Below, in pieces: positions 47,284 to 50,943 of a stretch of 64,000 nucleotides of DNA. Positions within the stretch are counted from its first letter, which is position 1. Every line of letters starts with the position of its first letter. Location: the NCBI RefSeq assembly GCF_003334405.1, contig NZ_QOWM01000011.1; one strand, written 5' to 3'. A model generated the notes under the pieces. The model did not search any database, was not told the DNA's origin, and saw only the letters and a program-made list of their open reading frames with translations. The stretch is from Escherichia coli. GTDB taxonomy: Bacteria > Pseudomonadota > Gammaproteobacteria > Enterobacterales > Enterobacteriaceae. Both the position numbers and the translations under genes were made by a program.

Positions 47284-47844
47284 ATGAACGTGAGTAAATA
47301 TGTCGCTATCTTTTCCTTTGTTTTTATTCAGTTAATCAGCGTTGGTAAAGTTTTTGCTAACGCAGATGAGTGGATGACAACGTTTAGAGAAAATATTGCA
47401 CAAACCTGGCAACAGCCTGAACATTATGATTTATATATTCCTGCCATCACCTGGCATGCACGTTTCGCTTACGACAAAGAAAAAACCGATCGCTATAACG
47501 AGCGACCGTGGGGTGGCGGTTTTGGCCTGTCGCGTTGGGATGAAAAAGGAAACTGGCATGGCCTGTATGCCATGGCATTTAAGGACTCGTGGAACAAATG
47601 GGAACCGATTGCCGGATACGGATGGGAAAGTACCTGGCGACCGCTGGCGGATGAAAATTTTCATTTAGGTCTGGGATTCACCGCTGGCGTAACGGCACGC
47701 GATAACTGGAATTACATCCCTCTCCCGGTTCTACTGCCATTGGCCTCCGTGGGTTATGGCCCAGTGACTTTTCAGATGACCTACATTCCGGGTACCTACA
47801 ACAATGGCAATGTGTACTTTGCCTGGATGCGCTTTCAGTTTTGA
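47284..47844 (+). CDS. pagP: Outer-membrane lipid A palmitoyltransferase (186 aa)
   Basis: [30 protein letters not shown]... matches PagP/CrcA; the track ORF is extended 8 codons. Confidence 0.9.
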
Positions 47845-48018
47845 GACAAATGAAGTTTTAGTAACTTCTTTAAAATCAATAGCTAAAATAAGTAACATCA
47901 AAAATAACGCGACTTTTATCACTTTTTAGTAAAGTTACACTGGACAAAGCGTACCACAATTGGTGTACTGGTAACCGACACAGCATTTGTGTCTATTTTT
48001 CATGTAAAGGTAATTTTG

Positions 48019-48228
48019 ATGTCTAAGATTAAAGGTAACGTTAAGTGGTTTAATGAGTCCAAAGGATTCGGTTTCATTACTCCGGAAGACGGCAGCAAAG
48101 ACGTGTTCGTACACTTCTCTGCAATCCAGACTAATGGTTTTAAAACTCTTGCTGAAGGTCAGCGCGTAGAGTTCGAAATCACTAACGGTGCCAAAGGCCC
48201 TTCTGCTGCAAACGTAATCGCTCTGTAA
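48019..48228 (+). CDS. cspE: Cold-shock-domain protein E (69 aa)
   Basis: [37 protein letters not shown]... has RNP1/RNP2 motifs; the track ORF is extended 10 codons. Confidence 0.95.
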
Positions 48229-48248
48229 GATACGTCAGCAAGAATTCA

Positions 48249-48277
48249 AAACCCGCTTAATCAGCGGGTTTTTTTTG
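48249..48277 (+). terminator. Rho-independent terminator downstream of cspE
   Basis: AACCCGCTTAATCAGCGGGTT hairpin followed by T8; it could also act bidirectionally for crcB. Confidence 0.7.
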
Positions 48278-48281
48278 GTCT

Positions 48282-48665
48282 TTAGTGTGCGGTTGAGGCC
48301 GAAAACAGCCAGAATGCCAGTGCGGTCATGGCAAAAGACCCCAGAAGGTTGACGAAAACGTTCAGTAATGCCCAGCCAAAGCGGCCCTCTTGTAACAAAA
48401 ACACCACTTCTGCCGAAAATGTTGAGAAGGTTGTTAGACCGCCACAAAATCCGGTGGTGATTAATACTTTCCACACTGGATCAATGTTCGTCATCCTGCT
48501 GAACCATGCGAATCCTATTCCTATGATGAATGCCCCAATCAGGTTTGCTGTCAGCGTCCCCAACGGAATCGCCTGATGCAGTGGGTTAAATCGCATACTT
48601 AACAGCCATCTCGCCACGCTTCCCGTACCACCGCCAATAAAAACTGCTAAAAGAAGTTGTAACAC
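48282..48665 (-). CDS. crcB: Fluoride ion channel (127 aa)
   Basis: Small 4-TM protein [23 protein letters not shown]... matches CrcB/FluC. Confidence 0.9.
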
Positions 48666-48751
48666 TGCAAAATCCTGCTATTTGATTTGTATGAGTGATA
48701 AGTGTAACGCCGAATAATCGTCGTTGGCGAATTTTACGACTCTGACAGGAG

Positions 48752-49545
48752 GTGGCAATGCTGGTTGCCGCAGGACAGTTTGCTGTTACATCTGTGTGGG
48801 AAAAGAACGCTGAGATTTGTGCCTCGTTGATGGCGCAGGCGGCGGAAAACGACGTATCGCTGTTTGTCCTGCCGGAAGCATTGCTGGCGCGCGATGATCA
48901 TGATGCAGATCTATCGGTTAAATCAGCACAGCTGCTGGAAGGCGAATTCCTCGGACTTTACGGCGAGAAAGTAAACGTAACATGATGACGACAATTCTGA
49001 CGATTCATGTTCCTTCAACGCCGGGGCGCGCATGGAATATGCTGGTGGCACTTCAGGCAGGAAACATCGTCGCCCGTTATGCCAAACTGCATCTCTATGA
49101 TGCATTTGCCATTCAGGAATCACGCCGTGTTGATGCTGGTAATGAAATCGCTCCGTTACTGGAGGTGGAAGGGATGAAGGTCGGTCTGATGACCTGTTAT
49201 GACTTACGCTTTCCAGAGCTGGCGCTGGCACAGGCATTACAGGGAGCTGAAATCCTGGTACTTCCTGCCGCCTGGGTTCGCGGGCCGCTCAAAGAGCATC
49301 ACTGGTCAACGCTGCTTGCCGCTCGTGCGCTGGATACCACCTGTTATATGGTGGCGGCGGGGGAGTGCGGGAACAAAAATATCGGTCAAAGCCGGATTAT
49401 AGATCCCTTTGGCGTCACCATTGCGGCAGCGTCAGAAATGCCTGCACTCATTATGGCGGAAGTGACGCCCGAACGTGTGCGTCAGGTGCGCGCGCAACTG
49501 CCCGTCTTAAACAACCGTCGCTTTGCGCCGCCGCAATTATTATGA
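48752..49545 (+). pseudogene. ybeM: Frameshifted carbon-nitrogen hydrolase (nitrilase superfamily) gene
   Basis: Two co-directional ORFs in different frames (48752-48985 and 48982-49545) together span a Nit-like protein with catalytic cysteine context ([10 protein letters not shown]); the frame break lies near 48940-48985. Confidence 0.75.
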
Positions 49546-49673
49546 TGTTTTTTTACTCGGCGCTTGATTCACCTTGTTACAGATTGCTATTGTGTGCGCG
49601 CGTCGAATGACCGTTAATATTCTCTGGTTTTTAAGGCGCGTTCTGTTGCCGGTTATATGTCAAGAAGGTATCT

Positions 49674-49877
49674 ATGGGTGAGATTAGTATTACCAAACTG
49701 CTGGTAGTTGCGGCGCTGGTCGTTCTGCTGTTTGGGACTAAGAAGTTACGTACGCTGGGCGGAGACCTTGGAGCGGCCATTAAAGGGTTCAAGAAGGCGA
49801 TGAATGATGACGATGCTGCGGCGAAAAAAGGCGCAGACGTTGATCTTCAGGCTGAAAAGCTCTCTCATAAAGAGTGA
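49674..49877 (+). CDS. tatE: Twin-arginine translocase subunit, TatA paralogue (67 aa)
   Basis: [43 protein letters not shown]... matches TatE. Confidence 0.92.
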
Positions 49878-49916
49878 CGTGGCGAGCAGGACGCTCCCTC
49901 AATATCTTGTTCGATA

Positions 49917-49948
49917 CAAAAAACCCGCTTCAAAAAGCGGGTTTTTTA
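49917..49948. terminator. Bidirectional rho-independent terminator between convergent tatE and lipA
   Basis: AAAAAACCCGCTTCAAAAAGCGGGTTTTTTAT: a hairpin flanked by an A-run and a T-run. Confidence 0.65.
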
Positions 49949-49977
49949 TCAGACAGATGTAAGTAATTATTACAGGA

Positions 49978-50943
49978 TTACTTAACTTCCATCCCTTTCG
50001 CCTGCAAATCGGCGTGGTAAGAAGAGCGGACAAACGGACCGCATGCAGCATGGGTAAAGCCCATCGCCAGCGCTTCGGCTTTCATTTCGTCGAACTCATC
50101 CGGGCTAACGTAACGTTGAACCGGCAGGTGATGGCGGCTTGGCTGCAAATATTGCCCCAGCGTTAACATCGTCACACCATGACGGCGCAGGTCGCGCATT
50201 ACCTCAATAATTTCTTCATTGGTTTCACCCAGTCCCACCATCAGACCAGACTTGGTCGGGATTTCCGGATGCGCTTCTTTAAAGCGTTCCAGCAGCTTCA
50301 GCGACCAGTTGTAATCTGCACCAGGCCGTACCTGACGGTAAATACGCGGTACGTTTTCCAGGTTATGGTTGAACACATCTGGTGGCGTTGCAGTCAGAAT
50401 ATCCAGAGCACGATCCATACGACCGCGGAAATCCGGCACCAGAGTTTCAATTTTGATTTGCGGGCTTTTTTCCCGAATGGCAGTAATGCAATCCGCAAAG
50501 TGCTGGGCACCGCCATCGCGCAGGTCATCACGGTCAACGGAGGTGATAACCACATAACGCAGCGCCATATCGGCAATGGTCTGAGCCAGTTTCACTGGTT
50601 CATTGGCATCAGGAGCTACCGGGCGACCGTGGGCAACATCACAGAACGGACAACGGCGGGTACAAATAGCGCCGAGGATCATAAACGTTGCTGTGCCGTG
50701 GTTGAAGCATTCCGCCAGGTTAGGGCAGGAGGCTTCCTCGCAGACAGAATGCAGGCCATTTTTGCGCATTGCGGCTTTGATGCCCTGGATACGTGTAGAG
50801 TCCGCTGGAAGCTTGATTTTCATCCATTCCGGCTTGCGCAGCAGGGCTTCGCGCTCTGTTGCCACGTTTTTAACCGGGATAAGGGCCATCTTATCGGCAT
50901 CGCGGTATTTAACACCGCGTTCCATCACAATGGGTTTACTCAT
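49978..50943 (-). CDS. lipA: Lipoyl synthase, radical SAM (321 aa)
   Basis: Radical-SAM CxxxCxxC (CTRRCPFC) plus N-terminal auxiliary-cluster cysteines; matches LipA. Confidence 0.95.

What the first reader, a model, noticed from the sequence alone, without database searches (positions are those of the whole stretch)
48752..49545. Nitrilase-superfamily gene ybeM is split by a frameshift
Two adjacent same-strand ORFs in different frames (77 aa and 187 aa) together encode one C-N hydrolase-like protein, and the break occurs around 48940-48985. This is consistent with the pseudogene status I recall for laboratory K-12. The 187-aa fragment starts at its own ATG and could still be expressed.
Basis: partly seen in the sequence, partly recalled or inferred. 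Interest (0 to 1): 0.4.

Follow-up and report, generated by a model that had tools for sequence, protein, structure and literature searches.

The report
Known ybeM pseudogene, one-base deletion
This is the well-known broken copy of the E. coli gene ybeM (a glutathione-repair amidase), inactivated by loss of a single G; the same lesion is in laboratory K-12 and in roughly one in six complete E. coli genomes, so it is real but ordinary.

Summary
Two same-strand ORFs, 48752..48985 and 48982..49545, overlap by ATGA. Together they encode one carbon-nitrogen hydrolase.

- **Lesion:** one G is deleted between 48956 and 48957 (GGAC[G]TTT, codon 67). It is not in a homopolymer run.
- **Repaired protein:** putting the G back gives a 262-aa protein identical to intact WP_000959109.1. 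It scores above the NCBIfam cut-off for deaminated glutathione amidase.
- **Known status:** MG1655 annotates the same locus as pseudogene ybeM (b4581). The two fragments are on record as "Putative protein YbeH" and "PUTATIVE PSEUDOGENE: YbeM".

- The true start is the ATG at 48758, which has a strong Shine-Dalgarno. The N-terminal fragment is therefore 75 aa, not 77.
- The window is not MG1655. It has 14 substitutions over 64 kb and lacks K-12's V33A and V37A.
- The deletion is not confined to laboratory strains. It is exact in 860 of 5,424 complete genomes, about 365 of them K-12 lineage.
- The fragments split the catalytic triad: Glu40 is on the N-fragment, Lys110 and Cys147 on the C-fragment.
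- The downstream ATG is the native Met76 codon and has no Shine-Dalgarno.
- There is no slippery site for recoding.

Verdict: already known, loss of function, low interest.

The parts
48758..49545 (+). ybeM pseudogene (frameshifted deaminated glutathione amidase gene), full extent as annotated in RefSeq relatives
   Evidence: Identical extent is annotated as 'deaminated glutathione amidase, frameshifted' in strain 300709 and in K-12 JME67, and as pseudogene ybeM b4581 in MG1655. Pfam CN_hydrolase E 9.4e-41 on the repaired product.
48747..48752 (+). Shine-Dalgarno AGGAGG of ybeM, 5 nt upstream of the ATG at 48758
   Evidence: Sequence; anti-SD duplex -11.6 kcal/mol, top 0.4% of 1,048 ATGs in the window.
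48758..48985 (+). N-terminal ORF (old name ybeH): 66 native residues including catalytic Glu40 (codon 48875-48877), then 9 out-of-frame residues and a TGA stop
   Evidence: This exact 75-aa sequence is in public collections on at least 1000 contigs. The K-12 variant of it is named 'Putative protein YbeH'.
48956..48957 (+). Deletion junction: one G missing between these two bases (intact GGACGTTTAC, here GGACTTTAC), in codon 67 (CGT, Arg)
   Evidence: Alignment with the intact alleles of YPE3, CFT073 and E01.
48982..48985 (+). ATGA overlap: the stop codon of the N-terminal ORF (TGA, 48983-48985) overlaps the ATG (48982-48984) of the C-terminal ORF
   Evidence: The ATG is the native Met76 codon of the intact protein.
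48982..49545 (+). C-terminal ORF (187 aa, native residues 76-262), carrying Lys110 (49084-49086) and Cys147 (49195-49197) but not Glu40
   Evidence: The exact sequence is named 'PUTATIVE PSEUDOGENE: Putative protein YbeM [E. coli K-12]'.

Best explanation
The locus is ybeM, the E. coli gene for deaminated glutathione amidase. This enzyme is a Nit1-type member of the nitrilase / C-N hydrolase superfamily, and it clears glutathione whose amino group has been lost to a transaminase side reaction. Here the gene is inactivated by deletion of one G in codon 67. Translation from the strong native start reads 66 correct residues and 9 wrong ones, then stops at 48983-48985. Native residues 67-75 are lost. 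The catalytic Glu40 is separated from Lys110 and Cys147, so no single polypeptide carries the Glu-Lys-Cys triad and the enzyme activity is lost. The lesion is a real, inherited allele. It arose once, recently, on a common phylogroup-A-type haplotype that still circulates in intact form. It is carried by K-12 and by several hundred natural isolates. Shown here: the lesion, its position, its population frequency, the family assignment and the split of the triad. Inferred: loss of activity, single origin, and dispensability of the enzyme.
For: - **ORF pair and overlap:**
- **Single-base deletion:** located by alignment with intact alleles.
- **Repaired product:** 262 aa, 0 differences from intact WP_000959109.1. 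The same exact sequence is named 'Deaminated glutathione amidase ... YBEM_ECO57' by UniRef.
- **Family assignment:** NF033621 scores 452 bits against a cut-off of 355 for the repaired protein. The fragments score 85.1 and 344.6 bits, both below the cut-off. Pfam CN_hydrolase covers residues 3-245.
- **Catalytic triad:** alignment to the NitFhit structure 1ems puts query E40, K110 and C147 on chain E54, K127 and C169. That triad numbering for 1ems is from my own knowledge of Pace et al. 2000.
- **Existing annotation:** pseudogene ybeM b4581 in MG1655, and 'frameshifted' in RefSeq relatives.
- **Frequency:** the 60-mer carrying the deletion is exact in 860 of 5,424 genomes, and the intact 61-mer is exact in 3,569.
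- **Recent origin:** the intact YPE3 allele differs from the window's gene only by the G and one synonymous site.
- **Literature:** the MG1655 'pseudo gene ybeM' is used as a neutral insertion site (PMC7242477).
Against: - Apart from the deletion the gene is pristine. The window and strain 300709 have no other amino-acid change, which is what a young pseudogene looks like but also what a still-selected gene would look like.
- The ATGA stop-start overlap is a classic arrangement for translational coupling, so the C-terminal fragment may be made at some level.
- Loss of enzyme activity was not measured here.
Confidence: 0.93

Rival explanations
1. The frameshift is a sequencing or assembly artefact, and the gene is really one continuous ORF.
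For: Single-base indels are the commonest assembly error. Two other frameshifts seen in relatives could be errors of this kind: delA in an A5 run in one ATCC 8739 assembly, and delC in a CCC run in M159-1.
Against: The missing G is not in a homopolymer run (GGAC[G]TTT). The identical 60-mer is present in 860 complete genomes from many laboratories and platforms, including the MG1655 reference, where it is curated as a pseudogene.
Confidence: 0.01
2. Programmed -1 ribosomal frameshifting (recoding) in the 64-nt window where both frames are open (48922-48985) restores a full-length active amidase.
For: The downstream frame is open from 48922, so a -1 shift anywhere up to 48985 would give a near-native protein.
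Against: That stretch has no X XXY YYZ slippery heptamer. It has only one TTT and two AAA triplets. Most E. coli genomes (at least 3,569) encode the protein in one frame, so the split is derived, not designed. No stimulatory structure was looked for.
Confidence: 0.02
3. The two ORFs are both translated, the second by termination-reinitiation at the ATGA overlap. Either they reassemble into an active split enzyme, or the 187-aa fragment has kept or gained a non-catalytic role.
For: There is an ATGA overlap and a strong SD on the upstream ORF. The window's allele carries no further damaging mutation. The allele persists in roughly 495 non-K-12 genomes (860 minus 365).
Against: The ATG is just the native Met76 codon, and its SD is no better than that of a random ATG (-3.1 kcal/mol). 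Nine native residues (67-75) are lost and nine foreign ones are added at the break. In the K-12 lineage the N-fragment has picked up two non-synonymous changes, V33A and V37A, next to Glu40 and no synonymous ones, which fits relaxed constraint. Other strains disrupt the gene in other ways, such as the IS21-family insertion in JNE21-003. The uniformity of the allele is explained equally well by a recent origin.
Confidence: 0.04

Closest known systems
ybeM pseudogene of E. coli K-12 MG1655 (b4581; formerly two genes, ybeH and ybeM)
   Same: Same locus (crcB - ybeM - tatE - lipA), same extent, the same deleted G and the same two ORFs.
   Different: The window's allele lacks the K-12-lineage substitutions T48855C (V33A) and T48867C (V37A). 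It has a private synonymous T-to-C change at 49312. The window differs from MG1655 at 14 sites in 64 kb.
Intact E. coli YbeM, deaminated glutathione amidase (WP_000959109.1; UniRef name YBEM_ECO57)
   Same: The repaired window product is 100% identical over 262 aa.
   Different: The window lacks one G in codon 67, so the protein cannot be made as one chain.
Nit1 / NitFhit Nit domain (PDB 1ems) and yeast Nit2 (4h5u), nitrilase-superfamily branch 10
   Same: Best matches among solved structures (E 3e-29 and 1e-26). The Glu-Lys-Cys triad columns are conserved. From my own knowledge of Peracchi et al. 2017 (PNAS 114:E3233), which is not held in the paper library, Nit1 is the dGSH amidase.
   Different: The relationship is distant: the alignments share only a minority of identical residues. 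The bacterial protein is a stand-alone 262-aa domain with no Fhit fusion.

Membership tests
Nitrilase / carbon-nitrogen hydrolase superfamily (Pfam PF00795) | Full-length match to the CN_hydrolase domain | tested here: met
   Repaired protein residues 3-245 match model positions 2-255 of 256, E 9.4e-41.
Nitrilase / carbon-nitrogen hydrolase superfamily (Pfam PF00795) | Catalytic Glu-Lys-Cys triad present | tested here: met
   E40, K110 and C147 align with E54, K127 and C169 of 1ems. All three codons are intact in the window (48875-48877, 49084-49086, 49195-49197).
Nitrilase / carbon-nitrogen hydrolase superfamily (Pfam PF00795) | Triad carried on one continuous polypeptide (a functional gene) | tested here: not met
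   The frameshift at 48956/48957 puts E40 on the 75-aa ORF and K110 and C147 on the 187-aa ORF.
Deaminated glutathione amidase (NCBIfam NF033621) | Whole-protein score above the curated cut-off (355 bits) | tested here: met
   The repaired protein scores 452 bits. The fragments as actually encoded score 85.1 and 344.6 bits, both below the cut-off.
Deaminated glutathione amidase (NCBIfam NF033621) | Hydrolysis of deaminated glutathione | not testable with these tools
   The assignment rests on the family name and on Peracchi et al. 2017, recalled from memory. The paper (PMC5402446) is not held.
K-12 ybeM pseudogene allele | Deletion of the G in GGAC[G]TTT | tested here: met
   The junction is identical in MG1655, JME67 and the window.
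K-12 ybeM pseudogene allele | K-12-lineage substitutions V33A and V37A (C at 48855 and 48867) | tested here: not met
   The window has T at both sites. The C,C version is exact in 365 genomes, and all four sampled were laboratory strains. The lesion is the same but the strain is not K-12.

The most novel reading that the evidence does not exclude
The ATGA stop-start overlap created by the deletion lets ribosomes reinitiate at Met76. The cell would then make both halves, which reassemble into a working split amidase. Alternatively the 187-aa half serves some non-catalytic role. Either would explain why the allele stays otherwise undamaged in several hundred natural isolates.
Probability: 0.03. 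Interest if true: 0.4.

Novelty: already known. Interest (0 to 1): 0.07.

Why it matters
It matters little. The pseudogene is curated in the MG1655 reference and is routinely used as a neutral integration site. Three points are worth keeping. First, the lesion is a natural polymorphism carried by about 16% of complete E. coli genomes, not a laboratory oddity. Second, K-12 and its relatives presumably lack this glutathione-repair activity, which is relevant when K-12 is used as a model for metabolite damage control. Third, annotation pipelines still emit the two fragments as separate 'amidase/hydrolase' proteins.

Tried and rejected
- **Sequencing artefact:** rejected. The deletion is not in a homopolymer and is identical in 860 genomes.
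- **Programmed frameshift:** there is no slippery heptamer in the 48922-48985 overlap window.
- **Independent initiation at 48982 or 48985:** the SD is no better than for a random ATG.
- **Promoter and terminator scan of 48500-49950:** the counts are no higher than in shuffles. It found no + strand promoter for ybeM and only a weak terminator-like hairpin at 49523-49536.
- **Rfam scan of 47800-50100:** the only hit is the cspA-type thermoregulator over cspE. There is no fluoride riboswitch upstream of crcB at gathering score, and nothing in ybeM.
- **Primary paper for the enzyme activity (Peracchi 2017):** not held under its DOI or PMC id. No paper in the library combines 'ybeM' and 'Nit1'.
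- **Structure prediction and large homologue searches:** deliberately not run, because they would not change the verdict.

Full report
**Observation**

The mechanical ORF list shows 48752..48985 (+, 77 aa, GTG start) and 48982..49545 (+, 187 aa, ATG start). They are in different frames and overlap by the four bases ATGA. Against NCBIfam NF033621 (deaminated glutathione amidase, profile length 260):

- The first ORF matches profile positions 2-65 (E 4.7e-24).
- The second ORF matches positions 76-260 (E 3.3e-103).

The two ORFs are therefore consecutive pieces of one protein.

**The lesion**

A 901-base query across the locus matches 5,425 of 5,426 complete E. coli genomes. Some matches span 901 bases and are annotated 'deaminated glutathione amidase, frameshifted', for example strain 300709 and K-12 JME67. 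Others span 902 bases and are annotated as an intact 262-aa protein, for example YPE3 with WP_000959109.1.

Alignment shows a single missing G. Intact alleles read GGACGTTTAC, and the window reads GGACTTTAC, with the junction between 48956 and 48957. The deletion falls in codon 67 (CGT, Arg) and is not in a homopolymer run. Re-inserting the G gives a 262-aa product with zero differences from WP_000959109.1. UniRef names that exact sequence 'Deaminated glutathione amidase ... YBEM_ECO57'.

**True start**

RefSeq starts the gene at the ATG at 48758. AGGAGG lies at 48747-48752, five bases upstream. Its anti-SD duplex is -11.6 kcal/mol, in the top 0.4% of the 1,048 ATGs in the window. The GTG at 48752 used by the ORF finder sits inside that Shine-Dalgarno. 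The N-terminal product would therefore be 75 aa: 66 native residues, then LYGEKVNVT, then a stop.

**What the gene is**

- The repaired protein is a full-length CN_hydrolase domain (Pfam PF00795, E 9.4e-41).
- It scores 452 bits on NF033621, against a cut-off of 355.
- Its best solved relatives are the Nit domain of NitFhit (1ems, E 3e-29) and yeast Nit2 (4h5u).
- In the 1ems alignment, E40, K110 and C147 of the query sit on E54, K127 and C169 of the chain. From my own knowledge of the family these are the catalytic triad.
- The name 'deaminated glutathione amidase' traces to Peracchi et al. 2017 (Nit1 as a metabolite-repair enzyme). I could not read that paper here, so the substrate assignment rests on the curated family name and on memory.

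**Consequence of the frameshift**

Glu40 (48875-48877) is on the 75-aa ORF. Lys110 (49084-49086) and Cys147 (49195-49197) are on the 187-aa ORF. Native residues 67-75 are lost altogether. Neither product carries the triad.

The 'own ATG' of the 187-aa ORF is the native Met76 codon. Its upstream 20 nt pair with the anti-SD at only -3.1 kcal/mol, the 40th percentile of the window's ATGs. Independent initiation is therefore not favoured. Termination-reinitiation at the ATGA overlap remains possible but untested.

The 64-nt stretch where both frames are open (48922-48985) contains no X XXY YYZ slippery heptamer. There is no sequence signal for programmed frameshifting.

**Known status**

- MG1655 annotates 658031-658818 as pseudogene ybeM, b4581.
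- Public collections hold the K-12 version of the 75-aa piece as 'Putative protein YbeH'. They hold the exact 187-aa piece as 'PUTATIVE PSEUDOGENE: Putative protein YbeM [E. coli K-12]', each on at least 1,000 contigs.
- Papers use the 'pseudo gene ybeM' of MG1655 as a neutral site for inserting tetA (PMC7242477).

**Not a laboratory or sequencing artefact**

| Query | Exact matches |
|---|---|
| 60-mer spanning the deletion | 860 of 5,424 genomes |
| Intact 61-mer | 3,569 genomes |
| 68-mer with K-12's C at 48855 and 48867 (V33A, V37A) | 365 genomes |

- In the sampled rows, the genomes that match neither junction query exactly have the intact length with nearby SNPs. LF82 and ST131 are examples.
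- The deletion carriers include isolates from humans, dogs, chickens, frogs, river water and food.
- All four sampled carriers of the K-12-type 68-mer are laboratory strains. No sampled genome carries just one of the two changes.
- By subtraction, about 495 non-K-12 genomes carry the deletion. This assumes that all 365 K-12-type genomes also carry it.

**The window is not K-12**

The window is collinear with MG1655 609,274-673,273 without any indel, but it differs at 14 positions. At four of the five differing sites that lie in the stretch also covered by strain 300709 (46799, 48855, 48867, 50584), the window agrees with 300709, so there K-12 is the odd one out. The C at 49312 is private to the window and synonymous (Leu111). 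No genome in the collection matches the 901-base query at 100%.

**Age and constraint**

The intact YPE3 allele differs from the window's gene only by the G and the private synonymous site. The deletion therefore arose on a haplotype that still circulates intact, which means it is recent. The K-12 lineage has since gained two non-synonymous changes and no synonymous ones, next to Glu40. That fits relaxed constraint, although two sites are too few for a test.

Other disruptions exist:

- An IS21-family element is inserted near the 3' end in JNE21-003.
- M159-1 has delC in a CCC run, and one ATCC 8739 assembly has delA in an A5 run. Both could be assembly errors.

**Verdict**

This is an already known loss-of-function pseudogene caused by a one-base deletion. 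The additions here are the exact lesion, the corrected start, the split of the catalytic triad, the lack of a ribosome-binding site or recoding signal for the downstream piece, and the finding that the allele is a common natural polymorphism in a window that is close to K-12 but not K-12.

Noticed in passing
window 1-64000: The window is collinear with E. coli K-12 MG1655 609,274-673,273 (entD to leuS) with no indels. It differs at 14 single bases: 3017, 18920, 19240, 26893, 27585, 28320, 38316, 39723, 46799, 48855, 48867, 49312, 50584 and 60137. It is therefore a close relative of K-12, not K-12 itself. No complete RefSeq E. coli genome matches the 901-bp ybeM query at 100%.
   Followed up: partly
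window 48855 and 48867: The K-12 lineage alone (365 genomes, all four sampled being laboratory strains) carries two T-to-C changes 12 bp apart. They give V33A and V37A, just upstream of the catalytic Glu40 of the already broken gene. The window and all other alleles examined have T at both sites.
   Followed up: yes
L007 (M159-1), L008 (ATCC 8739 assembly GCF_026016785.1), L009 (JNE21-003); equivalents of window 49082, 49375 and about 49455: Other strains break ybeM in other ways. M159-1 has delC in a CCC run, one ATCC 8739 assembly has delA in an A5 run, and JNE21-003 has an IS21-family (ISEc62) insertion near the 3' end. The two homopolymer deletions may be assembly errors.
   Followed up: partly
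window 49007-49177 (+), out-of-frame ORF inside ybeM: This ORF begins MFLQRRGAH. The same 9-aa peptide, encoded by a 29-bp ybeM fragment from UTI89, was reported to cause filamentation when over-expressed from pBAD24. Other out-of-frame ybeM fragments did the same in either orientation (PMC6206680; ORF).
   Followed up: no
about window 49100 (345 bp into ybeM): An NsrR ChIP-seq peak is reported inside ybeM in CFT073, and ybeM is also listed among NsrR targets in an earlier K-12 ChIP-chip study. ybeM is down-regulated 0.30-fold under NO stress in the CFT073 mutant used (PMC5320621). That table lists no NsrR motif for this peak.
   Followed up: no
window 47800-48276 (+): An Rfam cspA thermoregulator (RF01766) hit of 124.8 bits covers the cspE leader and gene. 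The match is cut at the 5' end by the chosen search window.
   Followed up: no
window 48731-48758 (-): The only sigma-70-like promoter match in 48500-49950 is on the minus strand (TTGCCA, 16 nt spacer, TAAAAT; 10 of 12 matches). It points toward crcB and overlaps the ybeM start codon and Shine-Dalgarno. The count is no higher than in shuffles.
   Followed up: no
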